A DNA stretch of 64,000 nt from Trypanosoma brucei (lineage: Eukaryota), in assembly GCA_000002445.1 (NCBI GenBank), contig CP000067.1:96001-160000 (forward strand). The letters run 5' to 3'. Shown here one piece after another: positions 5,307 through 47,821 of the stretch. Each line of letters starts with the position of its first letter. Within the stretch, counting starts at the first letter, position 1. The notes under the pieces were generated by a model, which searched no databases, was not told the DNA's origin, and saw only the letters and a program-made list of their open reading frames with translations. The position numbers and the translations under genes were made by a program.

Positions 5307-6563
5307 TCAAGGAAGCCCGTTGCGGTTTCCAGTTGCTAAGCTCCTTTCCATATTCTCGCCTCCTCGTTGTGTCGCATCGGAGTTTGCGAGGAGTGGCGTA
5401 TCACCGCACGGGTAGTTCGCTCGCGGGCACCATCTCCAACGAACGTCCGACAAGGCGTACACAAGGACACCGATAATAATCAAGACGTAGGCTGCGAAGA
5501 AAACAGGCGTGGGGTAAATGCGAAAAAAAACCACATTCCATATGATCCCGTATACACTTGTCGCCAGTAGAGATACGTTACCGAAGACTGCGCTTTTCAT
5601 GAAGAACAGAGCTGGGATGCCAGTGTACACAAGCAACATCGAAAAACCAAACAACATCTGATAGAGCCAGTCCTCGGAAGTCCACACTTGCGTTCGCGAG
5701 TTGAAACCGTCCCACTCAACAACAAAAAACTGAATAGTAGCTATAACAAGAGCGAAACAAGACATGAAAGATATGCTTTCAATAACGGGTATGTAGGCTG
5801 GTACGTCCCTTGACTCCCCCTCCCCGGCGACTTCCGTTGCGGTCAACCGCGGGGAGACGTTTACCGTCTCGCCCTCGTGCTTGTGCTCGTTGATGGTTGT
5901 TTCGCAATTACTCTCAGCTATTCGGTCTCGGGGGGTCGAGCCACCACCGGCACTTGGAAACTGAACATTGGAATTGCCCGGTTTAATTAAATACTCCATG
6001 AAAACATTCGACACGGCGTACAAGCTTGCCGCGAGAAGGCATAAGAGATCGCCCTTAAGGGCATTCGGACCAACTTCAGTGCGGGATATACCGTCAGCAT
6101 CTAACAGGATAAGAAGGACCAGACCACCAGTTGCCACAACGCACCCAGTTATATGGGTTATGGAAAACCGCATCTTGAGGATAAAGTAGCTCAAAACAAG
6201 CACACAAGGAATGGAAAAGCAGATAAGTAGCTGAGCCGAGACAAGGTCCGTGTACTGGAAAGCTTTCACAATAACAAAGTTCGCCTGCGAATCTACAAGC
6301 CCAAGAAAAAAGTACTTCCATGGCCTGTAGAGGAGCGTAAAGTTTTTGAACGTTTCATGTCGATGCCGAAGAAATAGAAAGAGGTACAGTGGGCCATAGA
6401 ACGTGAAGATGAATGCGTATGCAGTTAGGGACTGAAGGACTGGATAGCTAGCGTTGTTGTTGATCAATTTGGTGGTCGACACTCCCGTAAAAGAGTTTAA
6501 AAGAGCTACAAGCTGACCAAACAGCACATACAACGGAAGCAACTTCAATGCCGACTTCCTCAT
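5307..6563 (-). CDS. SLC35F1/F2-like drug/metabolite-transporter-superfamily membrane protein (multi-TM).
   Basis: 419-aa track ORF; its first codon is TTG, and the true ATG is at 6563. About 10 hydrophobic segments. The motif FQYTDLVSAQLLICFSIPCVLVLSYFILKMRF resembles the SLC35F1/F2 / DUF914 signature (QYTS...LLDC..IP....LS..FLK.RY). Confidence 0.55.
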   Translation of the reverse strand: MRKSALKLLPLYVLFGQLVALLNSFTGVSTTKLINNNASYPVLQSLTAYAFIFTFYGPLYLFLFLRHRHETFKNFTLLYRPWKYFFLGLVDSQANFVIVKAFQYTDLVSAQLLICFSIPCVLVLSYFILKMRFSITHITGCVVATGGLVLLILLDADGISRTEVGPNALKGDLLCLLAASLYAVSNVFMEYLIKPGNSNVQFPSAGGGSTPRDRIAESNCETTINEHKHEGETVNVSPRLTATEVAGEGESRDVPAYIPVIESISFMSCFALVIATIQFFVVEWDGFNSRTQVWTSEDWLYQMLFGFSMLLVYTGIPALFFMKSAVFGNVSLLATSVYGIIWNVVFFRIYPTPVFFAAYVLIIIGVLVYALSDVRWRWCPRANYPCGDTPLLANSDATQRGGENMERSLATGNRNGLP

Positions 6564-6939
6564 CAATGGCGTTCCCCCCCTGAAAATTGCCCTCCCTTCC
6601 CTGCTTTAGGTGTTACTAACTCGTAGGTAGAATCGTGAATACATACAAACGTGGAAAAAGAATTGTGAGAACAGTTGATTTAATGGAATAGCAGCAAACG
6701 AACCCTGAGGGAGGCTCAAAAACACACGCATGTGCATAATACGCAAAGGCACGCAACACAGTTCAAAGTTAGCAATGTGTGGTGACAGACTACGCCGAAT
6801 ATTATGCGAAAAGTTAAAGCGTAAAGGGGGAAAAAAAGGCGGCGCAACCGTTTGCGTTCCTCCTCGCTCGTACCCGAGCCATGTGCGGTGTAAGACAAAT
6901 GTAGTTACAAAGGCAGTACACCGGAAGGAAACACTACTC

Positions 6940-11397: not shown

Positions 11398-11995
11398 AGA
11401 TATCCCCTAATGCGAACCTGAAGCGACTATTCAAATACGCACAACAGCCATACTCATCAAAGGGTGGTGGAATCATAAAAGAAAAAAGAAAGGGGGAGGA
11501 AAAGGAGGAGGATGGGAAGACAGAAAGTTACAGCTCGCGAGTATGGGGGCTTGTTAATGCCTCAGCATATTGCACATACGCAAAGCATGTATGCAAGCAT
11601 GTACATACATATATATTGCCCATTAAACGAAAAGACACGACCTACAAAATCTAAGGGAGGTTGTTAAACCTTAAACACTGGGCGCTTATATATAAATATG
11701 TGTACATGTGCAGTAAAAATGAGGGGGTTTCGGTCGTACGGGTTCTGATATGGTTGCAGTGCAATTAACACACATCACAGTAATCAAAAATGGTCTTTTA
11801 ACCATGCCAATACGTATATATATATAAATATATATATGTGCGAAAGGAAGATGCTGTTACACCATTCAATTTCATCACCGCCTACAAACACGTCAAATGA
11901 TAACAACCATAATAACCCGAAGCCGGCACATGGTCATAGCCGACCACTCCCAGACACAAGCGAAAACGTAAACATCTGTTTATATGCATATGTGC

Positions 11996-12003
<8 letters not shown>

Positions 12004-12028
<25 letters not shown>
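12004..12028. repeat. (TA)12 microsatellite.
   Basis: gtacatatatatatatatatatatatatacaag in the intergenic region; further short (TA)n runs at 11815-11835. Confidence 0.9.
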
Positions 12029-12153
12029 CAAGAAGCAGTGATGCATATTCTCCTCCTTCTCCGCTTTTTTTTGCTTATAGTACATACGGTAACAAAGTCA
12101 TCTCAAAGCAACGCACGTGACAGAACGACCGATGCCTCAAAGCTTTCCGTCTC

Positions 12154-12996
12154 CTACCTGAAGCCAAGTTCCTTTCCAACGTTCCCCTTTTTGAGTAACA
12201 TCAAGTAGTTAAGCCGAACTTTCTGCGACTCAGCACGGGGATTACTGCGAAAGATGGGAGCGAACCGTGTGGAATCACGGAAAATTCGGTAGAGAGCAAC
12301 AAAGTCATCTTCGTCCAGCGTTCCTCGTTGATAGAGCCCTGGGGGAAAGACAAACAAGTCACCCGTCTTTGCGTGAATGCGAATCCATTTGTCCTGCTTG
12401 GAACGCACATCAATGAAGCAAGATCCATCGACCACAATGCGTATCTGCTCATCCTCGTTGTAGTGTTCCTGATACCACCGTTCCAAAAACTGTTCATCCT
12501 TACACGTCTGCGAAAGTTTTACCTCATCTGTATGTTTGTAGTTGCGCTCCTTCACAATTTGCCTGACAACAGAGAAGTCGTTCAAGCTCACATTGAAATA
12601 TATTATACCAAGTTCCTTCAACTGTTGTAATGTCGGAACTGGTGCGTCACGCTTCCGACCTTTCTTCAGACTGGCCAGGCACAACTGCGGCTTTGAAGTT
12701 ACATCGTCAAGATACCACATATCTACGAGGCCATCATTCACTACCGAGGGCGGAATGGGTGGAAGGTCTTGAATAATATCCGACCCAAGTCGGCGCCACT
12801 CCTCCTCCTGCCGTTTACGCCTCTTTTCCTCCTCTATTCTCCGTTCCTCCGCCTCACGCCGCCTGTTTTCTTCTGCCTCACGCTCTGCTGCTGCACGGCG
12901 CTCCCGCTCCTCCTTTTCCTTCTGTCGCTTCAAATCACGCTCACGAATCTCCTGCTCTTCTTTGAGTCGTTGCGCCGCATCCGTGTCGGGTTCCAT
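12154..12996 (-). CDS. Acireductone dioxygenase (ARD/ADI1, methionine salvage, cupin fold) with a 92-residue E/R/K-rich N-terminal extension.
   Basis: The C-terminal 188 aa align with human ADI1: MWYLDD vs MVQAWYMDD; QLKELGIIYF vs LRRLGVLYW; ERNYKHTDEVKL vs ERNYSWMDIITI; IRIVVDGSCFIDVRSKQDKWIRIHAKTGDLFVFPPGLYQRGT vs [42 protein letters not shown]. In-frame ATGs confirmed at 12996 and 12720 (the conserved start). The 12721-12996 segment encodes (E/R/K)n from a purine-rich run. Confidence 0.8.
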   Translation of the reverse strand: MEPDTDAAQRLKEEQEIRERDLKRQKEKEERERRAAAEREAEENRRREAEERRIEEEKRRKRQEEEWRRLGSDIIQDLPPIPPSVVNDGLVDMWYLDDVTSKPQLCLASLKKGRKRDAPVPTLQQLKELGIIYFNVSLNDFSVVRQIVKERNYKHTDEVKLSQTCKDEQFLERWYQEHYNEDEQIRIVVDGSCFIDVRSKQDKWIRIHAKTGDLFVFPPGLYQRGTLDEDDFVALYRIFRDSTRFAPIFRSNPRAESQKVRLNYLMLLKKGNVGKELGFR

Positions 12997-14515
12997 TTCT
13001 CACTTACACACGAACAAACTCTATTTTCTTTTTTTTTTAACTTTTACCTTTTCCTTTTTCTTATCTTGTCCTTCCTCCTTTTCTCACTGTGTGTGTATAT
13101 GCTTTTACAAGAATACTTGCTTTATTTGTTTAGCTATTGGCTTCGTCCGTCCTCGGAAAAGGTGTTGTGTTTTTTTTTTTTAAATCCCTGTATTCAACTC
13201 GCCCAGATCAATAATAAAGAACAAAAAAGAATATTATCTCCTTCGGTAATATATTCTTTCGTTTTGCAAGTTGCTGTAGTATTTGACTGTTTTTGTTTTT
13301 GTCGTCTTCTTTTTTTTTTTTGGCTGGTATCTTTTTTTCCTCCCTTTTTTCTTCTTTTAGGCTACTCGGTTGGTTGTGGTTCTACAAGTTGGTGGAAAAA
13401 AAAGGTGTGAAAAATGAGGGACGGTTTCACTTTGAATACGTGCTTTCAGCCATAATTAATATTTAACTTCAATTATTTGAGTTGAACATATTCTTCTGTT
13501 GTTATTATTCTTCACACCTCTTACCATCTATAACTATTGCAGTCAAGCATTCGACCTAGTGTTTAGTCACATAGTATTTTTTTCCTTTTTGTTTTGTTTA
13601 TTCTCTTAGCGTATTGATTTTTTTTTTAAAAAAAGCCTGACTTCTCCCCTTAAAGCAAGAAGGAAAAAAATAGTGACAATAATAAAAGCAACAATTCAGA
13701 CTGAGTTGTATGCAAAATACTATGACTTTTTAAATTATACGTTAATTTGTATACCCACCTGATGCATTTGTTCTCTCAGCAATGAAATTATACGACTGAC
13801 GTCTTTGGGAAAATGTAATAATAAAACGATAATACAAAGACGTATTGCGCGTGTCACAAGTAAATAATTTTTTTTGTTTTTTTACCCTCCAATTTATGCC
13901 TCTACAAGTCGTTGTATCCTCTGATTATGGTTTGTTTTTGTTTGTTTCTTTTTGTTTCTGTGGTTGTTGCATGTTGTCATTTCATACATCAGTCGTGTTT
14001 CACTAAGCGGTTACAATGCGTAGCAAGAACCACAAATGCAAAACGAAAACATATCGAAATGTACATTCAGAATTACGTGAGGATACCTTTATTTGATGTA
14101 AAACCTACCATTTTAAAAAAAAAGAGAGAGAGATTAACCAAAAAAAAAAAACAGTATGAATGACAAAAAAAAACTAACACATGCGCGCAGAGAAAGAGGA
14201 AAGCACAATCATTAACATCAAATAAAGAAATGTCACATGACTACGGCACAAGCCTGGTAAAATACAGAATTATAAGGCGAAATAAAACACAAAAAAACGT
14301 GCACGCTGAGATGCAAAACATATCTCATTTTCTATTGTGTATGTATTTAATACACGATTTCCCTTCCCCTTTCCCTCTATCCGCAACAGAAACACATGTT
14401 TTCCTCCTCTTTTTGGAGGTCGCTCATTCTACAAATACTCCCTCACCATTGGATGGACATCACAACCGGTACATCTCATTTTATTGCACCATCTTATGAT
14501 TTTGGAAATTTGTTA

Positions 14516-15736
14516 TCACAAATGAATACGAATGGATGGTAACATCCGCTTGCGACTCCTTTCGTATTCACGGGAAACCACAAAACAAATCATTGCAGCG
14601 TCGCGGTTTCCAAAAAGAGTCATCGACACATTAGCAAAATGAGTGTTGTAAACGCTGTTGTGTCGGAGTAATACAGCAGAGAGTATTCGATTCCTCACAT
14701 CTGAAACCGACGAAGACAAACGATTTGCCGCCTCCTCTAGGGAAATTTGCGAATATCGATACTTTACGCAAAAACGCTCAGCATTTGATACCATGAGATT
14801 CCAATGTAACGTACGCACAAGCAGCGCTTTCGCTTCACTTGAAGTGGTGTAATCCGCATCACTTAGTAAAACGAGGTGTATGCTCCGTCTCAAATGCTCA
14901 TCTTCAGTTAAAAGTGATTGGCCGTAATCCCTGGCAGCACGCGCGATGGCTTCCACCGTTACCCACGGAAGTTTATGGCCAGCGTTTAGTTTCATCACAA
15001 AGTCTATGAGTGCCCGTGACGTCAAGTCTCCATCATCATCAATTAAAGAAACCGCTTGCTTCAGTACATCTTCAGAGAAATCGGTGCACTGATAATCGCA
15101 ACTAAGCAACTTTTGGTGTCTTCCAGCAAGTTGAAATGCACTGCGACGCCTGCCACACTTCTCAAGTATTTTCCTCTCAAGCTGTTTCCACATCCCGGGT
15201 TCCGGGACATGTTTGTAAATGATGACATCCTCTTCATGCGAAAAGGGCTCTTGTGATGTAGCCATCGTATGGCGAAAATGCAAATAACACTGAAAGGCAC
15301 TTACTGGCTTTACCCTACTCGAGTCGTAATTAAGAGCGTCAGCAACTGTATGCCACTGTTTTGTATATGATTCCGCATTTGCTCCTAAACCGAGACAATC
15401 CGCCTGGCGCTTCAAATGTTGCACCGCACGGTGGCCCCAGCGAGGCTTTGACAACAGCGGTAAGACGTTATGCTGAAGTCTGCCAAATAGTGGAGGGGCA
15501 TAAACCATATTACAGTAATAAAATTTAAACACTATATCCTGATCTGCTCTCATTAACGGTGTCGTCCTATTTACAATTTTAGGTCTGACGCCCTCCGCCC
15601 TCAATGCACGAATGAGGGCAGCCATTGAAGCGAGCCGATGGGCGATATCATCTATTCTTTCACGAAGATGAGTTTGTAATCTCCTGTTGGCTTGCAACAA
15701 TGTTTCAAGGGCAACTAAGTCACCATCTATCACCAT
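14516..15736 (-). CDS. Myb/SANT-like domain protein (406 aa), possibly a SNAPc-type transcription factor subunit.
   Basis: ATG confirmed at 15736. Two Myb-repeat-like segments: WHTVADALNYDSSRVKPVSAFQCYLHFRH, and FSHEEDVIIYKHVPEPGMWKQLERKILEKCGRRRSAFQLAGRHQKLL (pattern F/W-S-x-EED...W...GR...QC..R). The functional assignment is inference. Confidence 0.45.
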   Translation of the reverse strand: MVIDGDLVALETLLQANRRLQTHLRERIDDIAHRLASMAALIRALRAEGVRPKIVNRTTPLMRADQDIVFKFYYCNMVYAPPLFGRLQHNVLPLLSKPRWGHRAVQHLKRQADCLGLGANAESYTKQWHTVADALNYDSSRVKPVSAFQCYLHFRHTMATSQEPFSHEEDVIIYKHVPEPGMWKQLERKILEKCGRRRSAFQLAGRHQKLLSCDYQCTDFSEDVLKQAVSLIDDDGDLTSRALIDFVMKLNAGHKLPWVTVEAIARAARDYGQSLLTEDEHLRRSIHLVLLSDADYTTSSEAKALLVRTLHWNLMVSNAERFCVKYRYSQISLEEAANRLSSSVSDVRNRILSAVLLRHNSVYNTHFANVSMTLFGNRDAAMICFVVSREYERSRKRMLPSIRIHL

Positions 15737-16861: not shown

Positions 16862-17863
16862 TCACTGCTTTACCGTAGCGAAAAGAAGTTTCCCCTCAGC
16901 ACAAGAAATATACGCATTATTAGGTAAACCCTCGAATATGCTAATATTCATAAGATCATACGCCGAATCGTACGAAGCAATTAGCTGACCGGTTGAGTAC
17001 GATGTCACGAGGACTTTGCTCGGTGATGACGTAATGGTCCAAACCAGACCCGATGTTTTACAGAGGCGTGAACTGAGCGGAATCAACTCCCCTAACGCCA
17101 TGGAAAGGCGGGCCGAGTCGTCCGCCAGTTCCTGACCTGAAACGCAATCAAAAACCTGCAGTTGTTCTTTTTGGCGACGGGAGGCGACGAGTACACAATT
17201 GGTACCGGTAATTAACTCAATACCATCGGAACTCACCTGAGCACCTCTGATTTCCACACGTGCTTCATTCGCCTTTAAATCCCACACTTGCAGTGGTCCA
17301 CCCCAACCACCACTAACTGCAACGCCTTGAGAGACGAAACGTACGGAGAAAATACGACTTGTGTGGGCTAAGCGACTCACACCGCTCTCATCATGTGCCA
17401 TTTGAAGGTTGGCTTTTAGTGTACCATCCGCATCGTAAAGACGGACAGTGCGGTCACTTCCAGCCGTAATGAACATATCACACTCGGGAGAAACCGCTAA
17501 ACATGTTATTTCATTTCCCTTCTCAGGCACTCTGTTGGTTCGATGAAGCGCTGCACCATCCCATTGCCAAATAAAAACTCCCCCCGCACTTGAAACCGAA
17601 ACCAAGCGGTAAAGTCCCCCTTCAGATGATTCAAGCCATTGCACAGCTGTGCATGGCACGTTATCATATCCTTTACCTGCTGCACTGCTATCCAATGCAC
17701 TAAATGTTGAAGGATTAAATATGACAAGGGCACCATCTCCAAACACAGCGGCAAGATACGTACCGTCATGGGAAAGAGAAGATGCGTAAACCTCTTCACC
17801 CTTGTCATTAATTGTTGCAACCTTCACACGCAAGGTACTATCATTCGCATGTTCCTCCGACAT
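16862..17863 (-). CDS. WD40-repeat protein (333 aa).
   Basis: ATG confirmed at 17863. Repeated WD-like units (VSVSSAGGVFIWQWDG, ITAGSDRTVRLYD, AVSGGWGGPLQVWDL). Confidence 0.6.
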   Translation of the reverse strand: MSEEHANDSTLRVKVATINDKGEEVYASSLSHDGTYLAAVFGDGALVIFNPSTFSALDSSAAGKGYDNVPCTAVQWLESSEGGLYRLVSVSSAGGVFIWQWDGAALHRTNRVPEKGNEITCLAVSPECDMFITAGSDRTVRLYDADGTLKANLQMAHDESGVSRLAHTSRIFSVRFVSQGVAVSGGWGGPLQVWDLKANEARVEIRGAQVSSDGIELITGTNCVLVASRRQKEQLQVFDCVSGQELADDSARLSMALGELIPLSSRLCKTSGLVWTITSSPSKVLVTSYSTGQLIASYDSAYDLMNISIFEGLPNNAYISCAEGKLLFATVKQ

Positions 17864-19493: not shown

Positions 19494-20648
19494 TTAGGCA
19501 TAAAGCCTTGCCACCAACAACTGACCGTTAGAGAAAACAAGGCCATTCAACTCTTGAACTATAAGCGTATGCATATTACGGTCTGCCATCCGTATCGCTG
19601 CTGCACCGTCTTCAAGAAGCTCCATGGCGCTTACATCTCCATAGCGTTGCAGTAATGATGAAAGAACAGGTTCTGACAATGAAACACCTGAAAGGTGCAC
19701 GTCTCCACTACTGGGAAATGCCTCCGTCTTAGCCTCAAATATCGTTGGCGCAGTGGTAAACATTGGCAGTGGTGGAGACGTCACGAGTGTGGGATAAATG
19801 ACGTGGGGTGAAGGCACCGCCGTTGCGGTCGGGGGCGGCGGATAAAACACGGGCACAGACGTTGGAACGCCAATCATTGGAAACGTTTGCATGGGTGGCC
19901 CCACAGGAACCTGCGGGAAGAATGGAAATGGCGACAGGCGCTGTCGGTATTTGGGAGAGTATTTTTGCCTGTTTTTATTACGCTCCTGTCGTAGTTGCCT
20001 AACTTCCGCCGTCTCAGAATATTTAACCTCCAGCTCAGAATCCAAGCCTTCGATACGAATATTCTTCTTTGCCTCAATCGCGGCTGTTGCCTCCTCAACG
20101 GACGAAAACTGAACAAAACCAGAACCTTTGCATTGCCCGAGGTGATTGGTGAGGACGGCAGCTTCTACAATGGTTCCATATGGTGCAAAACTTTGCTTGA
20201 GATGTTCTTTTGTTGTCCATTGCGCGAGTCCTCTAATGAATATGCGATCATTGGGCAAATCATCCACACCCTCGTCATGCATTGCGATAGACACATGCAG
20301 CTTCACGGGACTATTCGGTGTCGGATGTGTGAGATGCATGGCGTTAATTGCAGCATGTGCGGACTCCGGTTTTCTGAACATCACAAAAGCAAAATGTCTT
20401 TGCCGTACAAGTTTTGTGGATACAATCTCACCAAATTCCTTAAACCTTTGGTACAAGTTGTTTTCATCCCATGTTGGTGGAACACCAGCAACAAAAATGT
20501 TGGTGGAAACATGAGGCGTAACGGATGTCTGAGGGGTTGTTCCAGTGCTCGTGTCTTCGGGAGGTTCAGCTGTTACATCTACGCTTAATGTCGGTTTGTA
20601 AATTTCAGTAAAAACTTCTATTGGTTCCTCAGACGGCATACTTTCCAT
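19494..20648 (-). CDS. RNA-binding protein with two RRM domains and a P/T/V-rich linker.
   Basis: Track start at 20669 is GTG; first ATG is at 20648 (MESMPSEEP...). RNP1-like FAFVMF and GSGFVQF, RNP2-like IFVAGV and IFIRGL. C-terminal divergent RRM-like fold. Confidence 0.65.
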   Translation of the reverse strand: MESMPSEEPIEVFTEIYKPTLSVDVTAEPPEDTSTGTTPQTSVTPHVSTNIFVAGVPPTWDENNLYQRFKEFGEIVSTKLVRQRHFAFVMFRKPESAHAAINAMHLTHPTPNSPVKLHVSIAMHDEGVDDLPNDRIFIRGLAQWTTKEHLKQSFAPYGTIVEAAVLTNHLGQCKGSGFVQFSSVEEATAAIEAKKNIRIEGLDSELEVKYSETAEVRQLRQERNKNRQKYSPKYRQRLSPFPFFPQVPVGPPMQTFPMIGVPTSVPVFYPPPPTATAVPSPHVIYPTLVTSPPLPMFTTAPTIFEAKTEAFPSSGDVHLSGVSLSEPVLSSLLQRYGDVSAMELLEDGAAAIRMADRNMHTLIVQELNGLVFSNGQLLVARLYA

Positions 20649-21270
20649 ACCCAAAGACCAGAAACCCACACAACCTTACGCTCAGTGTGTGCTTCAAAGC
20701 ACTCTCACAGTGCCAACCAACCACCCACGAAAAAAAAATAAAAACAGGGGTAACAATTGGACAAATAAGCGGAGAATGAAAGGAAAAGAAAAGGAGAGAA
20801 ATGCATTCAGAAGGTTTAAAGGAAGAGGGAAAAAAAAGAGTTAAAACATCTGGAGTTTCCAAACATCGGATGGAAAGAAGGGCAAATTCCTAAATTGTCG
20901 TGGAGGCAAGCATAAATAAGAAAGATAATATATGAGCGTGTGTTTGTAGAAGTAAGTGGACACACACGCACAGAATAAAGGTGAGGAGGGTGAATGTTGG
21001 AATGTAGAAAAAGAGGGAGAAAGCAAGAGATAGACGGGGAGCAGGCGAATGTGTGGAATTCAGTTCGTCATGTGATGCTTGTTATTGCTTTGAAAGTACA
21101 CAAACAACAAACTAAAATAGGATGGGGAAGAACCCACCACACTTCGCATTTTCCCCCTTTTTAAAAAGAGGAAAAACTTAAGTTATTCATATATTTCCCT
21201 CCACCTGCACTCTCTTATTTAACTCGCTGAAACTTTTATTACTTTTTTCGCAGCAAATGCAAACATCGGT

Positions 21271-21384: not shown

Positions 21385-22335
21385 TCACGCACTGGCATCA
21401 CCGCCTTGTGGCTTCCCACCTGCGAGAAGCGACTCGTGAAGCTTCGTGGCGCCCGCATCACCGATATTTACTAACAACTGAAGCAAATTCCTCACCAGTC
21501 CCGTATTACTCTCAAGTGCTTGTTTGTAAGTGGCATTACGCAGGGCTTGTGGTAAACAACGGCTCAAAGCCTCACGTCCCCTCTGGTTCTCAGAAAGACG
21601 GAGGTAGCAGCGAATAATGTACCTTAACAGACGTGTGCTGCAATCTTTTGATTCCACCAATTTCCCCAGCACCGTAGCCACAGCCGTGAACCGTTCAGGA
21701 GTTAGGCATACATATTTCAAACCTCCCTCTGAGTTAAGGAGCCTCTGCACGATAAATGTCGCCAAAGTTTTTGAAAATTCAGTTCCAGACTCCATGATGT
21801 TGAGGCAAAGGGGGAATATCTCCGTGTTGAGAAGGTACTGAACAACATCATGATCATCTGTTTTTACAAGAGCGCCAATAACACCAAGGGAAGTGAGTCG
21901 CAACCCTTCAGTCCCTTCATTCATCCCACGGAGAAATGGGTAGAGGAAGAGACACATTTGTGAATCGAGAAACATGCGTCGAGTGGATTCATGGAAAGCA
22001 ACAGCTTGCAGAAGAGTCAACACGCTGCTCACACGATTTGCCATTCCCTTGGCAAGAAGATGAGGTGTACTTAACAAGGGATAGACAGAAATTATTTCCT
22101 GCAATAGAACTGACATGATCCCCACGCCATACCACAACGCAGGTCCGAGATGATGATATGATTCGCGATCTTTTGCCAACTCCAAAATGGAGTTCTCACG
22201 CGTCTCAGGTTTGTAAAGCCCTTCGAGGTATTGAAACATACGACGCATATCCTCCGAAACGGGAGGTTGCTGCTTTGCTGCAGCCTGCTGTGGTTGATAA
22301 AACCCGTAAGGCAAATACGCTTGGGTTTGGTGCAT
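21385..22335 (-). CDS. CAF40: CCR4-NOT complex subunit CAF40 / NOT9 (Rcd1 family).
   Basis: Track start at 22341 is GTG; ATG at 22335. Near-colinear match to human RQCD1/CNOT9: [56 protein letters not shown] vs [56 protein letters not shown]; and [28 protein letters not shown] vs [28 protein letters not shown]. Confidence 0.9.
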   Translation of the reverse strand: [316 protein letters not shown]

Positions 22336-23853
22336 GGTCACGAAAATCCTCTACAAATAAAAATAAAAATAAAACAAGAACGCAAAAGGGAAAAAAAAAC
22401 TTGCGAAATCAAAAAATAAAAAAGAAAAGAGGGCAAATGAGGGAAAGGAAGCATTGTAGTAGTGAATAAAGAAAAAATGGGGAGGGAGAAAACAAGAGAA
22501 TCCGTACACATTTCACACAGCCTCACAGTAGCAACAAAACGAAAAAAAAACACTGGCAGGTCGTCCACATACGAACATGAACACAAACGCAGAAACGGAA
22601 GGCGTGAAAGTCACTCAGTTGACAAGTCGCACTTTGATTACCGAGGCAGAATGGGCATGCGGAGGAGTAGATAATGGACAACTTAAATGATGCAGTGAGA
22701 AAATAAGAAGGGAGGGAAAATAAAAACGAGATGACAGTGCCTTCCTTTATTTTAAAACGATAACGGGAGACCAGCAGTTTAGACCCTCTGTGATGGGGAA
22801 AACAACCGGTGCTACAAAAACCCGCAGGGGAAAAACCAAGTCTTTGAAGTATCCCCGTAATTTATCTTCCCATTTCCTTTGTTCTTTCTTTTTCTCTTCC
22901 CCCTTGCTTGCCTTTTTCTCTCCTTTCCATTGTTTTGCTTTGCCCTCTCATGAAACGACAATTTCTTCTCCGACACGGCACGGTACGGGCCAATACTATA
23001 CATCGTGCAAGCCTTTATCTGCTTTCTGAAGGATGGATAAAGCCATACACTCGAAAAAGACAAAAAGCAAAGCAAAACAAAACAGAATAGAACAAAGAGT
23101 CAGCAATAAAAACCACAGTGGCCCTATATTCACTTCCACACACTCAGCTCATGAAAACACGCTAACGCAGCAGAAGTGGACAAGGCAAGGGTGAAAAATA
23201 AGACAAACGTGAAACCGACACGGGCTTCGAATTAACACTCGATGGCAAACACGTTTCATACGAACTAAAGGCCGGTTCATCCATCCCCCCCCCACTCACA
23301 CACACACCTCGTCTTCTTGATAAGTTCCACTTTTATGTCGATCATATTCATAAATCTTTACTCAAGTCGGGTATATCCTGCCACTTGAAGAAGAAAAAAG
23401 ACGTGTCCTCCTTCCTTCACTCACCAGAGGTTTAGCAACTCAATAAATGTTCCTTTAAAGAAAATGCAAAGGCTGCACACAACACGTCCCTTAAGCACGA
23501 TTAAAAGCGAGACACAACCCAACTGCCAGTCGTTTTTTCTTTTTTTTTCCTTTCCTCTCCCGTTTACTCTTTTATTGCTTTCAATGAGTTAACCGAACTA
23601 GTAAAGAGGCGCCACCCCCGCGCCCCGCGTAACCCACCTCTTGTCCACACCTTCACTCCCGTCTGCCACAATCAAAACAACATAACATAGAGCAAACGAA
23701 CCACAACAGAAGGCGCAAAAGAGGATTTCCCCTTATCCAAAAGGCTGAAAATAAAACAATAGAAAAAAACAGACACGTTGCCACATAAGCCAATACCAAC
23801 AGTGTTGTCCAGCAGCACTTAACAACATATCAGAAGTGAACCACAACAACACT

Positions 23854-26800
23854 TTACCAGAACGGATACCAACCCGCCCATGACTGAGCGACGTTAGTAA
23901 TATCTGTCGCCTCAACAATCAGCCGTGCAACCTGTACTTTTGGATCGGTACTTTTGGTGTCGCCTTTTGTTCTTAAGAACTCCTCCCCTTTCAGCTTCGA
24001 TCGAACTCGCTGAAATACCTTAACACCTTTATGAACTACATCGTCATCCGGTATGGATGCACAGCGGGTGAGTTTGGAGTCCACAGTGAACATATCGTCC
24101 CTTACAGGTGCACCAGGAAATGCAACGGATGACATCCGCGGTCCCACCGCTTCACTTTGTTCATCAATGTTTTTATGTACTGTGGAGTCCCCAGGTTCCT
24201 TTTTCATGTGGTTCAATAACCTCCAAGAGATGAGTGGGTCCTGAATAAAGGCCTCAAGAATGGCAAGCACGCTCCGGCTTCCATCGCGCAGAACGCACAT
24301 GGCGGTCTCTGCGATTGAACGAAATGGTCCGTCGACACCAAACACGTCCAATGCATTGCGTATCATTCGTGTCAAGCGGAAGGGCACCCTTTCAGGGAAC
24401 ATTTGACGTGTCATCGCAACTTCAAAGCAGTCACCAAAATCGATATGGACAAATAACCCAGACGTACGTTGAATCATCACATTGTTGGGGTGCCGATCCC
24501 CCAAACCGAGAATATAACCAACCATACACGTGGTTGCCGAAGATGTTGTAAACACCTGCCTTTGCTCAAGCCACATCTCACAATTGGAAGCTGAGGCCCA
24601 CATTGCCTTTCTAACATCGTGACCTGAAGTATGATCTGCAAGGAACTCCATCACCTCAACCTTCGATATCATCGTGAGGTGGTCGTAGGTTTTTGGCCTA
24701 TCGCATACAATGATTTGATTCATCATGCGCAACTCGAGCTCCGGTGGAATACCACGAAACTTCCTGTACTTCGTCACGAGCGTGTGTAACGTGTCACAGC
24801 CGCTAACCCAACCAATAAGACCCACCGTGTCCTTGAGTGGTGTGACAGAATACCGCTGAATCTGGAATCCAGGATTCTTGCAGGTTCTTGAGTCCGTCAT
24901 CATGAGAGTGTTCACAAGTCTAAAGAGTTGCATTACCCTCTCATCAAGACGCAGATCCTCACGACCCTTCAACAAATACTTTTGTGTTTCTCCATCCACT
25001 GTTGTGACGCTAAGCCTCTTAGGTCGCTGTTTACTTCCAATCACAGTGAGTGTGCCGTTAAAGGAGGCAGTACACCTTACCGCACAATCCTCGGATGGCA
25101 TCGCATCGGGGAGTCCCACTGCGAGATTTCTTGCTTCAAACAGCTTTGGACTACAAAATGAAAGGTGCAACTTACTTTGAGACCTTATCTGTTTGTCGAT
25201 TTGTTGATAAACTGCATGGTAAATGTTCCAAGCCGAGTGAAGGTCAGCTATAGATCCCGTTCGGAGGTATGATTGAAGCCACTCTTGGGCCCTATCAAGC
25301 TTATTGCCGAACTTACAAGTAAACTCAGCCTCGACAATAGTATCTGTGGAGAGGTGCAGCTTCTCGTGCAAAGGAAGAAGCACGTCTAGCATACCTTTAT
25401 AGTCGTTTCGGTCAAAAAATGCGGTAGCGGAACATTCCAGCATATGATACCACTGCTCATGCAAGAGGTCCGAAGTCCGCACCAACTCGTCTACAAGGAT
25501 TCGCCCCTGATTAACCACAAGAGGGTGTTTGCTCTGCAGTTTGTCAAGAATTATATTTGCGTACTTCCTCCGCCTCCTAGAGTTGGACATTGCGCACAGG
25601 TTGAGGGGATAAATTAGCGAGAGTGGACAATCAAAACTGACAGTTGTTAGAATCTCCGCGACAAGCTCACAGCTGCCATCGGAACCGGAGTCCAGACGCG
25701 CAATGAGTTGCGGAACCACCAATTTCCAAGCGCGCGGCGACACCTCGAAAACCCGCTTACGTAACTCCTTCAACCCACTTTCCTGATCACAATGACGACT
25801 GAGTAAAGTGAGGAGCTTCAAAACATCCTGAATAATGGTGGAATCTGAGTTTCCCAGTTTAATGCTCTGTATATAGCCTTCAATTGCGGCTGCGCATGTG
25901 GCGTCGGAGAATGTGACATCGAGCATCTCCGCATTCGACTCCGCAAACATGCGCCACGCGTGGAACCATTTAGGGCAATAAGTTGTAGCCGCCTTGTAGC
26001 ATTGCACAGCCTCAGAAAGTTCTGCACTGCTGCCAAGCCTCGCATAAGCGCTCGACAAGAGAAAAGCGTTCTCATTCCTTGAGTGTGTATCGATCATCCT
26101 CTTCAGCAGGTCACGCTCGAGACCATAAGAACTCTTTGGTCCAAGCTCACCGTTTGCAGAGAGAAAACTAATGTACTGCATCACTACACGGGGGTTTGCG
26201 TTGCTGTGCATGAGCTGTTCCGATGTTGGGCAGCGATAACCCAACAACTGACACAAAATGAAACGCTCGTGTTGCTTTGCCTTCTCGCGCCGACAAAGAT
26301 TCACAAAGCGAAGACGTGTAGCAACGTCCTCGCCTGGCGGAATGAGCAAGCCACGCACCCCGAGGACCTCCTTCCATGCAGAAACTGTAGAGGACATCAT
26401 CTCAATGCGTTGGCTCCACAAACGCAGGACGCGGCTCAGATGATGCGTTGAAGACACCACCTCCGCTCGCTTTACCGTCACGATCTCTTCCAATTCAGAC
26501 AGCTTTTGCGCAATAACGAGACCTTCGTACGCGCGAGTGTACGATTGATGCAAAAGCCCTGAAAGATCCTCTAAAAGTAGCTTCCGCCCCTCATTGATTG
26601 CCGAAGTTGCCTCTTCGTAGCGGCGCTTGTGAATGCTAAGCGCAGCACGCGAGACATGGTACGACACAGTATCGTTTAGTTGCCAACGCGTGGTGTCCTC
26701 CAGTGTATCCCACGCCTGCAGGCGTATTGAAGCATCAGCGGCGCACTGTGACACGTAGAAAAGGGTGTTTTCTTCCCTCTTCTGCTCGTCCCTACCGTTA

Positions 26801-29800
26801 TATTTTTGAAACAGTACCTTCCACTGCTCAAGCACTGCATCATAATCACCAGCTTCGCTTAGTGCGTACAATGTATTAACCTCATTTTCCATTTCAGGGT
26901 CTAACTTCACATCCTCACCATTGAAGGAACTGTTGGCATCCGAGCGGGAACGACCACCCACCCCACACATTCGCCGGAGAGACTCCTGCCGCGATAACCA
27001 CTTCACTGAGTACTCGTCGCTGCCATCCGATTCACTACGCTCATTGTCAATACATCCTTGTAGGAGTTTCAAGCTTTCTGAATGTCCAGTGACCATAAGA
27101 AGCCCCGACTGCTGCAATTCACGGTAAAGACTAAACAGGTACTTCGCTGTCCCCCGAGGATCCTTCCTGTATGCCGCTTCGCACCAATAGAGAGCCTTTG
27201 CGAGCATCCCCCGACCCCATGCACATCTAGAAAGAATACTGGGAGCAATGGGAAGTGCCATCCCCACATTGTCCATATATTCCGCGACGGTGAGGAGAGC
27301 GGAGACCACCTCATCGGGTACAGCGGAGGACTCCATGGCTTGTTGTAGAACCTGGAAGAAGAAATCGGCGAGAGACGAGCGAACGGATGCACTCGCAAAG
27401 TTCCAGAGGGCCCGAAACGCGTGCGGAGCGATATCTTGAGTGAACTGGGGTGAGCAATCCACTAGTGGCGAGGTGTTAGCAGTCAGCGGTAGCGAGATAC
27501 ACCGAAAAACTCTGTAAGGGGATTCCTGCATGATGACACAAGAGAAGTCATTGAGCCACCTGAGCCATTCCTCCTTAGTAAGGGGAGCCGTTCTGGTCGT
27601 GCTGATGATCAGCTTCTCAGAGAAGGGAAGGGGGCGCTCTCCATCATCAGAATTCCAGCCCTTCTCGTCCACATTTCCCCGTGTGCTCAACACCTTGTCC
27701 AAATCAGAGACGTGGCGAAGGGCGATGCCTTCACACTCCTTGAGGAGTCGCACCACTTGCTTTTGATGCTCTGTTACAAAACCTTTACTCAAGGTGCAAA
27801 CGCCACCCTTCATTAACGTTCCATGGAGGGTAATTAATTCGTTATTTGATACGCGAAGGGTTTTCAGTGTCCGAAGCACCTCCGATGAATATTTGACAAA
27901 CTCGCTCTGCAATACTGTCATTAAAACGCAAAAAACACCCATGATGCGGCTGACGAACGCGTTTTGCTCCGTCGCCCTCATAGATGTTGAAAGCCGAGTT
28001 TTCAAACAGCTGAGAAGCCCGCGAACAATGAGACCCGCAAATTCATCAACGTGAAGGCGGAAACAAACCACACGGAGCGTCGTTATGACAGACAACGCAA
28101 AATCAATGGGACACCTTTGTGCAGCCCGCAAGAGATTGGTGACAACCGTCTCCACGCACGTTTTCAGTGTTTGTGTATGCTTCAAGATGTACTCTATGAT
28201 GGCATAGCGTAAGGACTCGGATGACTCAATATCGTTAAGAGCGTCAAACTTGATGGGGGACATCCGCATGTTGCTCCTCCTCGATTCCGCCTTACCGTCC
28301 GCTTCAAGGGTGACAAGCGTAAGAGCAAGTCGGACAGCAAGAAAACGATACTTTGACGATTTTACCCATGACTCATCAATCAAATTGTACAGTAAATGAG
28401 CGTGTGAAAGTGCCGCCACCCCAACATACCTTATGATCTGCGTTAGTTCATGCAGCAGAGTGCCTAATAAACGGCACGCACTGAGTTCACTCACGGCACG
28501 AACCACTGGTGGAATCACAACGGCAATTTCTCCCCGCGAGTCGGGGCATGATTCTGCAATGTTGAGAATCGTTTGAATTCCCACACGCAGTACATTATCT
28601 TTTCCCCCCGAAAAACGCTTCTCACTTAGATCCAGCAGAGAAGCGATGGAGCGTATAACCACACGGCAACACATGGCATGGCTAAGAGTGCTCGGCTCGT
28701 TTCGTTTCATTTCCTCATGTCTGCAAGTCCGATTGACGACTGTGGAATGGAAAATGCTGATGTCAAGTGCGCCAATAACTCCGGCGCAGCGTAGTGCCTC
28801 AAGACGAACGTCCAAGTCCTCATCGTTATTTTTCACGATACCGCTTAACTGCTGGTAAAGATGAGGGTACACCTCATACGGCGACCGGCCTTCGATCTGC
28901 GGGCCCAGTGTAGCAGACAGGAACCGAAGACACCACAAACGCAACTCAACAGACTCGCTGTCAAGGGGTAGAGCTTTGAGCAGCATGTACGCACGGTCCA
29001 CTTCTACTCTGAAAATGGCATCGGTATTCCCAAAAAAATGGGCAGCATGCGCTACTGACGTACAGCAACGCAGTAGATGTTGCAAAATAGAAGAGTGGAT
29101 GTTGACCGTTGAGAAATGGTGCCCAAGTGCTTTGATGATACCATCCGCGAAGTTCATGACAAATTGTGGTGCGTTGGATGCGGCTGCATCCAGCAGTTGA
29201 AGCCCACTTTGCACGGCACCTGTGTTGTCGCTAGTGGATACCGTATGTAATATCTGAACAATTTGTTTGCGAAATATTGGTAATATGTGGGATGGGTCGT
29301 GAAAGGTCATGCGGCAGAGCAGTACGGTGGCAGCTACCCGACAACTTATATCCTCATCCCCAAGTGCAGCGTAGATCGAAGTCACAAACTGCACCTCCTT
29401 CAAAAACGGATAAAATGGTTCTGTAAACGAAGAGAGAATTCCTTTCCTAACGACCGGGTCGGGGTTTGACAGCCCAACCACAAGCATACGAGACAAAATT
29501 ACATCAACACATATTCTGCGTGCCATTGTAAGCTCACCCTTAACACCAGGGGGGATTAGCAGCGTGCAAATTGTACGAACTGCCGCGGTGCGAACCGATA
29601 CACTTTCACTGTCGATGAGGGGCAACACCGAGTCCCGCAAGAAGTCACCCATCAGCTCCGAATCGGAAAACCCAAATTGGACTAATGCATCAAGAGCAAC
29701 TGTTATTTGGCTCTCAGTTGGTTCTGACTCCACTTTCATGGTAATGGTACCCTTCGAACCGGGTTGCTGACGAAACGGTAGACCGCACAAAGTTACGGAA

Positions 29801-31092: not shown

Positions 31093-31096
31093 CCTT

Positions 31097-31200
31097 GGAT
31101 GTACGCAAGCACAAAGAAAGAGATGATAAAGAAATAGAAAAGAAGAAAAACTATAGAATTTACAGTTATAGAGGGGGGGGGGAAAAAACGCACCTATATG
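31097..31200 (-). promoter_or_regulatory. Polypyrimidine tract / spliced-leader acceptor region upstream of the TOR ATG (C10 run plus CT-rich on the transcribed strand).
   Basis: Plus strand 31100-31200 is almost pure purine (aagaaagagatgataaagaaatagaaaagaagaaaaact...gagggggggggg aaaaaa), i.e. a pyrimidine tract on the minus strand about 10-100 nt upstream of the ATG at 31092. Confidence 0.45.
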
Positions 31201-32728: not shown

Positions 32729-32773
32729 AATGGTGCGCAATAAAAAAGAGGATGTGAAGTGGTTTCTTTACAA

Positions 32774-47746: not shown

Positions 47747-47821
47747 CGGATACCTTAGGTATACCACGAGGGGGTTGCGCCTCCGAGCACTAAACCAAAG
47801 GGCACAAGCATACGCGCACAC

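What the first reader, a model, noticed from the sequence alone, without database searches (positions are those of the whole stretch)
12154..12996. Acireductone dioxygenase carrying a 92-residue (E/R/K)-rich N-terminal extension encoded by a purine-rich tract
The conserved ARD cupin core starts at an internal ATG (12720, MWYLDD, aligned to human MVQAWYMDD), but an in-frame ATG exists 276 nt upstream (12996). The intervening codons give RERDLKRQKEKEERERRAAAEREAEENRRREAEERRIEEEKRRKRQEEEWRR, a highly charged, probably coiled-coil or disordered segment. On the transcribed strand everything from 12721 to about 13400 is purine-rich, so no polypyrimidine/acceptor lies between the two ATGs. The nearest pyrimidine tracts are around 13395-13425 and 13640-13700, so both ATGs should lie in the mRNA and scanning would use 12996. 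If so, this would be an unusually extended ARD. The alternative is an annotation trap caused by a low-complexity purine run.
Basis: partly seen in the sequence, partly recalled or inferred. Interest (0 to 1): 0.5.

Follow-up and report, generated by a model that had tools for sequence, protein, structure and literature searches.

The report
ARD-like protein with conserved charged helix
The 92-residue charged N-terminal extension on this Trypanosoma brucei "acireductone dioxygenase" (Tb927.4.360) is real, translated and conserved in kinetoplastids and some diplonemids, but the enzyme domain has lost three of its four metal-binding residues, and published work places the protein in the flagellar axoneme, so it is probably not a methionine-salvage enzyme.

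Summary
ORF 12154-12996 (-) encodes 280 aa: a 92-residue E/R/K-rich extension followed by an ARD cupin core. It is T. brucei Tb927.4.360 and is already annotated at 280 aa.

Published spliced-leader mapping puts the only acceptor at window 13381. That gives a 385-nt 5'UTR with no AUG, so 12996 is the first AUG.

All 72 near-full-length homologues (kinetoplastids, two hemistasiid diplonemids, unnamed environmental sequences) carry the extension. The internal Met93 is Ala in 55 of the 72. dN/dS of the extension is about 0.06. The helix body is exactly 54 residues in 70 of the 72.

AlphaFold predicts one 64-residue helix. Its composition fits an ER/K single alpha-helix, not a coiled coil.

The new point concerns the catalytic site. 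The canonical His-His-Glu-His metal ligands read H-N-Q-Q in T. brucei, and no family member keeps all four. Literature reports an axonemal location, PIH1D1-dependent co-purification with outer-dynein-arm IC1, and an incomplete methionine-salvage pathway in T. brucei.

Best reading: a paralogous, catalytically degenerate ARD-fold protein held on a fixed-length charged helix in the flagellum. It is a new variant of known kinds and of moderate interest.

The parts
13391..13420 (-). Polypyrimidine tract (CCCTCATTTTTCACACCTTTTTTTTCCACC) upstream of the mapped trans-splice acceptor.
   Evidence: Sequence read. It lies directly upstream of the splice-acceptor site published by Kolev 2010.
13381..13383 (-). 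AG acceptor (13383-13382) and first transcribed base (13381), which is the spliced-leader addition site.
   Evidence: Kolev 2010 Table S12 gives a predominant site at chr4:109381, a 5'UTR of 385 nt and a dispersion of 0.02. Subtracting 96000 from the chr4 coordinate gives the window position. The same offset also reproduces the 529-nt 3'UTR.
12997..13381 (-). 5'UTR, 385 nt, 68% purine, with no AUG in any frame.
12154..12996 (-). Complete coding sequence of Tb927.4.360, 280 aa plus the stop codon.
   Evidence: One search lists the ORF. One search finds an exact match to AAZ10627.1, CBH10301.1 and the T. evansi and T. equiperdum entries.
12790..12981 (-). Residues 6-69: a purine-rich tract encoding one long E/R/K-rich alpha-helix (ER/K or SAH type).
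   Evidence: AlphaFold2 predicts helix 6-69 with pLDDT 72-91. The segment is 74% charged and 8% hydrophobic, with no heptad seam. The helix body is 54 residues in 70 of 72 homologues. dN/dS is 0.055.
12721..12789 (-). Residues 70-92: conserved linker LGSDIIQDLPPIPPSVVNDGLVD. L70, G71, I75 and P82 are invariant in the 24-sequence alignment. It includes the C-rich tract at about 12766-12746.
   Evidence: Alignment A1. L70 and G71 are also 72/72. pLDDT is 74-86. The tract is located.
12157..12720 (-). Residues 93-280: ARD-fold cupin core plus the family-specific C-terminal tail (KKGNVGKELGFR).
   Evidence: Pfam PF03079 E 1.1e-24. PDB sequence match to 1vr3 and 4qgn. Foldseek TM-score 0.87-0.88 normalised to the target.
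12445..12465 (-). Degenerate cupin motif 1: H178 (12465-12463), N180 (12459-12457, in place of His90) and Q184 (12447-12445, in place of Glu94).
   Evidence: HMMER alignment to mouse and human ADI1. Codons were read.
12328..12330 (-). Q223 codon (CAA), in place of the fourth metal ligand His133.
11625..12153 (-). 3'UTR, 529 nt, ending at the mapped poly(A) site. It contains a (TA)12 repeat at 12005-12028.
   Evidence: Kolev 2010 Table S13 gives the poly(A) site at 107625 and a 3'UTR of 529 nt. Checked against the sequence.

Best explanation
The gene is Tb927.4.360. Its mRNA is trans-spliced 385 nt upstream of ATG 12996, which is the first AUG, so the full 280-residue protein is made (shown).

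The protein has three parts. Residues 6-69 form a single long, highly charged ER/K-type alpha-helix of about 9.6 nm, and its 54-residue body is fixed in length in 70 of the 72 homologues examined (predicted). Residues 70-92 form a conserved linker, W-x-x-LG-x-D-x-I...LPP(V/I)PPS. The rest is an ARD-fold cupin domain with a family-specific C-terminal tail.

The cupin domain belongs to a paralogous lineage confined to kinetoplastids and diplonemids. In this lineage the canonical His-His-Glu-His metal site is degenerate. It reads H-N-Q-H in most members and H-N-Q-Q in T. brucei, so one of four ligands remains. The protein is therefore most likely not a working Fe/Ni acireductone dioxygenase (inferred).

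Published data place it in the axoneme and show that its co-purification with the outer-dynein-arm intermediate chain IC1 depends on PIH1D1. The most likely mechanism is that the charged helix and linker act as a rigid, fixed-length arm or docking element. This element would hold the globular, non-catalytic cupin domain at a defined place on or near the outer-dynein-arm/doublet lattice, where it would serve a structural or ligand-binding role (inferred; not tested).
For: Start site: the splice-acceptor site is at window 13381 with dispersion 0.02. The 5'UTR has no AUG, and three out-of-frame AUGs precede Met93. An in-frame TGA lies one codon upstream of the start.

Conservation: 73 homologues were found, and all near-full-length ones are about 279-291 aa, apart from three longer database models of 310-363 aa. 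Met93 is present in only 14 of 72 and is Ala in 55. For the extension, dN/dS between T. brucei and T. vivax is 0.062, and pN is 0.107 against 0.078 for the core. Helix identity to Bodo is 0.60 against 0.22 for composition-preserving shuffles, z = 7.8, and the E13-to-W67 distance is 54 residues in 70 of 72.

Structure: the AlphaFold2 model has mean pLDDT 86.4 with a helix at 6-69. The helix is 36% acidic, 38% basic and 8% hydrophobic. The best heptad a/d hydrophobic fraction is 0.28, against about 0.8 for GCN4 and tropomyosin. The core matches mouse and human ADI1 at TM 0.87-0.88.

Active site: the positions equivalent to H88, H90, E94 and H133 are H178, N180, Q184 and Q223. Family counts are H 72/72; N 50, T 14, H 3; Q 68/72; and H 60/72, with no member keeping all four. 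The four ligands are invariant in 19 diverse canonical ARDs.

Paralogy: diplonemids and Euglena also have canonical ARDs. A crude neighbour-joining tree separates the long type from them.

Literature: axoneme localisation and PIH1D1-dependent association with IC1 are reported in bioRxiv 10.1101/2025.07.26.666928. KEGG lacks three methionine-salvage steps before ARD in T. brucei, according to PMC3846528.
Against: No biochemical data exist on metal binding or activity. Asn and Gln can ligate metals in principle. Most non-African-trypanosome members keep two His plus the catalytic Arg (R186, 72/72), so a modified activity cannot be excluded for the family.

The axoneme and outer-dynein-arm link rests on one preprint's statement and its citation of TrypTag. 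I could not find the gene in the held supplement text of TrypTag, the Leishmania flagellar proteome or the APEX2 proteome. The protein is not among the chains of the PDB copy searched, so it is not modelled in any deposited axoneme structure.

The single-helix state is a prediction. AlphaFold tends to draw charged low-complexity segments as helices. The strong position-specific conservation is unusual for a pure spacer and could instead mean the helix binds a partner along its length.
Confidence: 0.65

Rival explanations
1. Annotation artefact. The purine-rich run merely happens to be open, and the real protein starts at Met93 (MWYLDD), as in canonical ARDs.
For: Canonical ARDs begin at the equivalent position. 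A C-rich pyrimidine tract followed by an AG lies just upstream of ATG 12720.
Against: The only mapped splice-acceptor site is 385 nt upstream of ATG 12996, and the gene is not in the published list of misannotated starts. Met93 is Ala in 55 of 72 orthologues. The extension is under purifying selection, has a fixed length and is conserved position by position.
Confidence: 0.02
2. It is a genuine Fe/Ni acireductone dioxygenase of the methionine-salvage pathway, as the databases name it, and the extension only regulates or localises the enzyme.
For: The protein has a strong ARD fold and Pfam match. H178 and the catalytic Arg186 are invariant. Trypanosomatid metabolic reconstructions use it as EC 1.13.11.54. 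In T. cruzi it is listed as a hub gene in the same co-expression module as MTA phosphorylase.
Against: Three of the four metal ligands are replaced in T. brucei, and no family member has the full set, whereas the four are invariant in canonical ARDs. KEGG lacks the preceding pathway steps in T. brucei. The protein is reported in the axoneme. Canonical ARDs coexist with the long type in diplonemids.
Confidence: 0.12
3. The extension is a dimerising coiled coil, or a disordered polyampholyte with NLS-like KRRKR patches. It would drive oligomerisation or nuclear/nucleolar or RNA-related functions, as reported for mammalian ADI1 (own knowledge).
For: The segment is basic-rich (EKRRKRQ). It gives weak compositional Pfam hits to eIF3 subunit and the CAF1A acidic region, with E 0.06-0.5.
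Against: There is no hydrophobic heptad seam: 0.28 against about 0.8 in coiled-coil controls. AlphaFold2 predicts a confident continuous helix. The length is strictly conserved, which is unlike disordered linkers. The reported location is the axoneme, not the nucleus.
Confidence: 0.1
4. Two isoforms exist. The long form starts at AUG 12996, and a short ARD-only form starts at Met93 through leaky scanning or a minor internal trans-splice site at the C-rich tract.
For: Met93 is present in African trypanosomes and Leishmaniinae, 14 of 72. An internal pyrimidine tract followed by an AG is present.
Against: Splice-site dispersion is 0.02, and the gene is not in the alternative-site table. AUG 12996 has A at -3 and G at +4. 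Three out-of-frame AUGs lie between the two starts. Met93 is not conserved in T. cruzi, Bodo and others.
Confidence: 0.05

Closest known systems
Canonical acireductone dioxygenase (MtnD/ADI1; Pfam PF03079; mouse 1VR3, human 4QGN)
   Same: It has the same cupin fold (TM 0.87-0.88) and 28-31% identity. Pfam is well above threshold. The catalytic Arg96 equivalent is kept.
   Different: It carries a 92-residue N-terminal helix plus linker and an extra conserved C-terminal tail. The metal ligands H90, E94 and H133 are replaced by N, Q and Q. F84 becomes W and F135 becomes G. It is reported in the axoneme rather than as a cytosolic salvage enzyme.
'Probable inactive acireductone dioxygenase 2' paralogues in plants and insects (name seen for Nymphaea colorata P0285; the Drosophila case is from my own knowledge of UniProt)
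   Same: These are ARD-fold paralogues thought to have lost catalysis and they coexist with an active ARD.
   Different: They are short proteins of about 190 aa with no charged helix. They have no known flagellar link and are an independent lineage. I did not inspect their active sites here.
ER/K single alpha-helix (SAH) domains, as in myosin VI and X, caldesmon and MAP7-type proteins (own knowledge)
   Same: About 74% E/R/K, dense i/i+4 opposite-charge pairs, no hydrophobic seam, and a predicted continuous helix.
   Different: Typical SAH spacers vary in length and sequence between orthologues. This helix is fixed at 54 residues in 70 of 72 sequences and is conserved position by position. That suggests a measured arm or a binding surface.
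ARD fusion proteins such as Tetrahymena MtnBD (PMC3698126)
   Same: An ARD domain at the C-terminus of a longer polypeptide.
   Different: In MtnBD the N-terminal partner is an enzyme (MtnB), and the ARD keeps His307, His309, Glu313 and His352 and is active. Here the partner is a helix and the site is degenerate.
Other N-extended ARD-like proteins of diplonemids (P0076 Lacrimia, P0101 Artemidia, P0134 Rhynchopus, P0182 Diplonema)
   Same: They have the ARD-like core with H-x-N in place of H-x-H, N-terminal extensions, a related C-terminal tail, and sister positions in the crude tree.
   Different: Their extensions are longer and less E/R/K-rich. Only a W-x-x-LG-like remnant remains (P0076), and the cores are far more divergent.

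Membership tests
ARD/ARD' family (PF03079), structural membership | Sequence match to the family profile above the curated threshold. | tested here: met
   87.8 bits against a cut-off of 27, E 1.1e-24, residues 123-243. E about 1e-26 to mouse and human ADI1.
ARD/ARD' family (PF03079), structural membership | ARD-type cupin fold. | tested here: met
   AlphaFold2 model with pLDDT 86. Foldseek hits 1vr3 and 4qgn with E 3e-15 and 2e-14, TM 0.87-0.88 normalised to the target, rmsd 2.4 A.
Acireductone dioxygenase enzyme (EC 1.13.11.53/54) | 3-His-1-Glu metal site (His88, His90, Glu94 and His133 in human numbering). | tested here: not met
   T. brucei has H178, N180, Q184 and Q223, so one of four is retained. 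None of the 72 family members has all four. All four are invariant in 19 canonical ARDs.
Acireductone dioxygenase enzyme (EC 1.13.11.53/54) | Catalytic Arg (Arg96 equivalent) and substrate-orienting Phe84 and Phe135. | tested here: inconclusive
   R186 is kept in 72/72. The F84 equivalent is W in 71/72. The F135 equivalent is G, A or S. The roles of these residues are taken from PMC3698126.
Acireductone dioxygenase enzyme (EC 1.13.11.53/54) | A methionine-salvage pathway upstream that supplies acireductone. | not testable with these tools
   Literature only. PMC3846528 reports that EC 3.1.3.77 is missing from most trypanosomatids and that the two preceding enzymes are missing from KEGG for T. 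brucei.
Acireductone dioxygenase enzyme (EC 1.13.11.53/54) | Measured Fe- or Ni-dependent dioxygenase activity. | not testable with these tools
   No biochemical report was found for this protein in the literature searches.
ER/K single alpha-helix (SAH) domain | High E+K+R content with dense i/i+3 and i/i+4 opposite-charge pairs. | tested here: met
   36% acidic and 38% basic. There are 0.48 opposite-charge i/i+4 pairs per residue, against 0.10-0.15 in coiled-coil controls.
ER/K single alpha-helix (SAH) domain | No heptad hydrophobic seam, which distinguishes it from a coiled coil. | tested here: met
   The best-register a/d hydrophobic fraction is 0.28, against 0.79-0.80 for GCN4 and tropomyosin. 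The segment is 8% hydrophobic overall.
ER/K single alpha-helix (SAH) domain | A stable monomeric helix in solution. | not testable with these tools
   Only a prediction is available: AlphaFold2 helix at 6-69 with pLDDT 72-91.
Axonemal / outer-dynein-arm-associated protein | Localisation to the axoneme and physical association with outer-dynein-arm subunits. | not testable with these tools
   Literature only. The preprint 10.1101/2025.07.26.666928 reports co-purification with YFP-IC1 that is lost on PIH1D1 RNAi, and a TrypTag axoneme location. The protein is not present in any PDB chain.

The most novel reading that the evidence does not exclude
A metabolic enzyme fold (ARD) was duplicated before kinetoplastids and diplonemids diverged. 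One copy lost its metal site and became a lineage-specific axonemal subunit associated with the outer dynein arm. Its 54-residue charged helix would span about 8.1 nm, one tubulin-dimer repeat. The helix would act as a fixed-length ruler or docking rod, and the dead cupin pocket may serve as a small-molecule or redox sensor that tunes flagellar beating.
Probability: 0.2. Interest if true: 0.65.

Novelty: new variant of a known kind. Interest (0 to 1): 0.45.

Why it matters
There are three consequences.

First, the gene model is sound. The start codon is correct, and the real annotation problem is the enzyme name. "Fe(2+)-requiring acireductone dioxygenase" is propagated in UniRef and NCBI and is used in trypanosomatid metabolic reconstructions. 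Yet the metal site is degenerate in every member examined, and only one ligand remains in African trypanosomes. Methionine-salvage models for these parasites may therefore rest on a non-enzyme.

Second, the protein is a clean example of an enzyme fold recruited to the flagellum. It carries an unusually length-constrained ER/K helix. This makes a tractable test of whether such helices act as molecular rulers.

Third, the protein is confined to kinetoplastids and diplonemids, is conserved across pathogenic trypanosomatids and is linked to the outer dynein arm. That makes it a candidate lineage-specific motility component.

Tried and rejected
1. I tried to learn whether trypanosomatids also have a canonical ARD. 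A profile search with 19 canonical ARDs and a search with one repeat of the Flectonema canonical ARD each list only the best 120 hits. These were plants and vertebrates, with one Euglena sequence (P0391) and no trypanosomatid. The question is unresolved. L. major is reported to have two ARD-like genes, LmjF20.0970 and LmjF34.4600.

2. Four supplement searches for Tb927.4.360 or LmxM.33.4600 found nothing: Nilsson 2010, TrypTag, the Leishmania flagellar proteome and the APEX2 proteome. The held text of long supplement files is often cut, so this is not evidence of absence.

3. A PDB sequence search found no trypanosome axoneme chain matching this protein.

4. The weak Pfam hits of the extension (eIF3 subunit, CDC45, CAF1A acidic; E 0.06-0.5) were rejected as compositional.

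5. I considered a role for genomic neighbours and rejected it. The window is one polycistronic unit of unrelated genes.

6. dS is saturated for all pairs beyond T. brucei-T. vivax and T. brucei-T. cruzi. Only those two pairs give usable dN/dS for the extension. For the core, dS is saturated in every pair, so no core dN/dS was obtained.

7. The neighbour-joining tree has no bootstrap support and should be read only as a sketch.
Full report
**Observation**

The minus-strand ORF 12154..12996 is present and encodes 280 aa. An in-frame TGA sits one codon upstream of ATG 12996, so the ORF cannot extend further.

Purine content on the transcribed strand is 0.76 over 12996-12796 and 0.68 over the 5'UTR. 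It is 0.53 in the cupin core and 0.50 for the window as a whole.

A U-rich tract lies at about 13231-13215. A C-rich pyrimidine tract followed by an AG lies at about 12766-12746, between the two ATGs, where it encodes LPPIPPS.

**Identity**

The exact protein is in public databases as AAZ10627.1 and CBH10301.1 and as the T. evansi and T. equiperdum entries. It is already annotated at 280 aa.

The literature gives the T. brucei gene with this product name as Tb927.4.360. Kolev et al. 2010 list its splice-acceptor site at chr4:109381 with a 385-nt 5'UTR, and its poly(A) site at 107625 with a 529-nt 3'UTR. Subtracting 96000 from these coordinates reproduces both the start (12996) and the stop (12154) of the window ORF. 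The window is therefore chr4:96001-160000 and the gene is Tb927.4.360.

The neighbouring Rcd1/CAF40, TOR kinase and coatomer-alpha genes fit this location. Their gene numbers are from my own memory.

**Transcript and start codon**

The mapped acceptor is the AG at 13383-13382. Its dispersion is 0.02, so this is essentially the only site used in that data set.

A search of all the supplement text held for that paper found the gene's ID only in Tables S12 and S13. It was not found in Table S1 (splice site inside the ORF, hence a misannotated start) or Table S3 (alternative processing sites), and both of those files are held uncut.

The 385-nt 5'UTR has no AUG in any frame. AUG 12996 has A at -3 and G at +4. 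Three out-of-frame AUGs (12980, 12737, 12734) precede the internal AUG at 12720.

**Conservation of the extension**

A search of 5.8 billion proteins returned 73 homologues. They come from Trypanosoma, Leishmania, Leptomonas, Herpetomonas, Strigomonas, Phytomonas, Porcisia, Bodo saltans, Trypanoplasma borreli and a prokinetoplastid, plus environmental sequences. All near-full-length ones are about 279-291 aa, apart from three longer database models of 310-363 aa.

- The internal Met is present in only 14 of 72. It is Ala in 55 of them, including T. cruzi, T. grayi, T. rangeli and Bodo, so those proteins cannot start there.
- Between T. brucei and T. vivax, dN/dS of the extension is 0.062. pN is 0.107, against 0.078 in the core, while synonymous sites are close to saturation.
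- Conservation is position-specific, not only compositional. Helix identity to Bodo is 0.60, against 0.22 for shuffles that keep composition (z = 7.8).
- The distance from E13 to W67 is exactly 54 residues in 70 of 72 sequences, which is unusual for a low-complexity charged tract.
- The extension ends in a conserved motif, EEEW(K/R)(K/R)LG(S/P)D.I..LPP(V/I)PPS. L70 and G71 are invariant in all 72, and I75 and P82 are invariant in the 24-sequence alignment.

**Structure**

AlphaFold2 run on the 24-sequence alignment gives a mean pLDDT of 86.4. It predicts one continuous helix at residues 6-69 (pLDDT 72-91), an ordered linker at 70-91 (74-86), and a cupin core. The core superposes on mouse and human ADI1 with TM 0.87-0.88 normalised to the target.

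The helix is 36% acidic, 38% basic and 8% hydrophobic. It has 0.48 opposite-charge i/i+4 pairs per residue. Its best heptad register has only 0.28 hydrophobic a/d positions, against about 0.8 for GCN4 and tropomyosin.

This is the signature of an ER/K single alpha-helix, not of a coiled coil or a disordered segment. Sixty-four residues correspond to about 9.6 nm, and the 54-residue invariant body to about 8.1 nm.

**Degenerate active site**

In the HMMER alignment to mouse and human ADI1, the four metal ligands His88, His90, Glu94 and His133 align to H178, N180, Q184 and Q223. The table gives counts across 72 family members.

| Canonical ligand | Residue in T. brucei | Residues across 72 members |
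|---|---|---|
| His88 | H178 | H 72 |
| His90 | N180 | N 50, T 14, H 3 (only in the prokinetoplastid and hemistasiid sequences), other 5 |
| Glu94 | Q184 | Q 68, E 3, H 1 |
| His133 | Q223 | H 60, Q 7, R 2, K 1, L 1, V 1 |

T. brucei and T. congolense have Q at the fourth position, and T. vivax has K. No member has all four ligands. In 19 diverse canonical ARDs all four are invariant. The catalytic Arg is kept in 72/72.

T. brucei therefore retains one ligand of four. Canonical Fe/Ni ARD chemistry is very unlikely in this protein.

**Distribution and paralogy**

An exhaustive profile search of 1.84 billion representatives finds the family as a single 50%-identity cluster at 445 bits. Scores then drop to 303 bits or less. 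The next single-domain relatives that also carry N-terminal extensions are diplonemid proteins: Lacrimia P0076, Artemidia P0101, Rhynchopus P0134 and Diplonema P0182.

Hemistasiid diplonemids (Artemidia P0069, Namystynia P0071) have the long type itself. Diplonemids also have canonical ARDs with intact sites, in tandem-duplicated form (Flectonema P0078, Lacrimia P0240). Euglena has a canonical ARD, P0391.

A crude neighbour-joining tree groups all N-extended forms apart from the canonical ARDs. The long type is therefore a paralogue that arose before kinetoplastids and diplonemids separated.

**Function from the literature**

- A 2025 preprint reports that Tb927.4.360 co-purifies with the outer-dynein-arm intermediate chain IC1. 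The association was consistently lost on PIH1D1 RNAi. The preprint also states that the protein localises to the axoneme in TrypTag and that its function is unknown.
- Ribosome profiling ranks it among the genes whose translation is most strongly up-regulated in procyclic forms.
- Alves et al. 2013 note that acireductone synthase is missing from most trypanosomatids. They also note that KEGG lacks the two preceding enzymes in T. brucei.
- L. major is reported to have two ARD-like genes, LmjF20.0970 and LmjF34.4600. The latter is the probable orthologue by synteny, which is my inference.

**Best explanation**

The following are shown or rest on published mapping data:
- The full 280-aa protein is the product.
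- The extension is an ancient, selected, fixed-length feature.
- The ARD fold is kept while the metal site is lost.

The following are inferred:
- The charged helix and linker act as a rigid arm or docking element.
- This element positions a non-catalytic cupin domain in the axoneme, near the outer dynein arm.

The match between 54 residues and the 8-nm tubulin repeat is noted only as a speculation.

The rivals are an annotation artefact, a genuine salvage enzyme, a coiled coil, NLS or disordered region, and dual isoforms. They are weighed in the rival section. The first is refuted, and the others are less well supported.

**Comparison and novelty**

By fold and profile the protein is a member of the ARD family. 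It fails the defining catalytic feature, so it should not be filed as an acireductone dioxygenase enzyme.

Inactive ARD paralogues, SAH helices and ARD fusions are each known. The combination is not described in the papers I could search: only two mention the gene. The combination consists of an ancient kinetoplastid/diplonemid lineage, a length-invariant ER/K helix, a degenerate site and a flagellar location.

I rate it a new variant of known kinds, with moderate interest.

**Dead ends**

- Two database searches failed to show whether trypanosomatids keep a canonical ARD.
- Four supplement searches found no mention of the gene.
- The protein is not in any deposited structure.

Noticed in passing
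window 13629-14104 (-): Kolev 2010 list a novel, unannotated transcript, Tb4.NT.6. Its splice-acceptor site is at chr4:110104 and its poly(A) site at 109629. This places it in the gap between this gene and the next upstream ORF (14516-15736).
   Followed up: partly
window 12005-12028: A (TA)12 microsatellite lies inside the 529-nt 3'UTR of Tb927.4.360.
   Followed up: no
window 12769-13410 (+): A 213-aa antisense ORF rich in L, F and S. It is the mirror image of the purine-rich tract and 5'UTR, and is a mechanical ORF rather than a gene.
   Followed up: yes
whole window (chr4:96001-160000): Every ORF of at least 200 aa with a Pfam hit is on the minus strand, so the window is one polycistronic unit. 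The genes are an SLC35F-like transporter (5307-6566), a WD40 protein (16862-17863), an RRM protein (19494-20669), Rcd1/CAF40 (21385-22341), TOR kinase (23854-31221), a proteasome subunit (32072-32740), coatomer alpha (35219-38797), an AlkB-like 2OG-Fe(II) oxygenase (39156-40220), Gar1 (41456-42145), a DCN1-like protein (42428-43180), an FHA protein (46454-47821), a Fam20-like protein (52745-54292), and a dynein heavy chain (55603-63948) that runs off the window.
   Followed up: partly
proteins P0078 (Flectonema), P0240 (Lacrimia), P0075 and P0232-P0235 (chytrids): Canonical ARDs occur as tandem duplications within one polypeptide in diplonemids and in chytrid fungi. Both copies in the two diplonemid proteins and in chytrid P0075 keep H-x-H...E...H.
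   Followed up: no
window 12715-12798 (residues 67-94) and homologues: The linker between W67 and W94 comes in two lengths. It is 27 residues in 21 family members, among them the aligned Trypanosoma and Leishmania-group sequences, and 30 residues in 47 others. The helix before it is invariant in length.
   Followed up: partly
window 12157-12210 (C-terminal about 18 residues) and homologues: A family-specific C-terminal tail, YLM.LKKGNVA.ELGF, extends beyond where canonical ARDs end. It is conserved from trypanosomes to diplonemids (R261 and Y264 invariant; G271, V273 and F279 at 90% or more). Its function is unknown.
   Followed up: no
database annotation of the window protein: UniRef names the Trypanozoon cluster 'Acireductone dioxygenase (Fe(2+)-requiring)', although three of the four iron ligands are missing. 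This is probably an over-annotation by homology transfer.
   Followed up: yes
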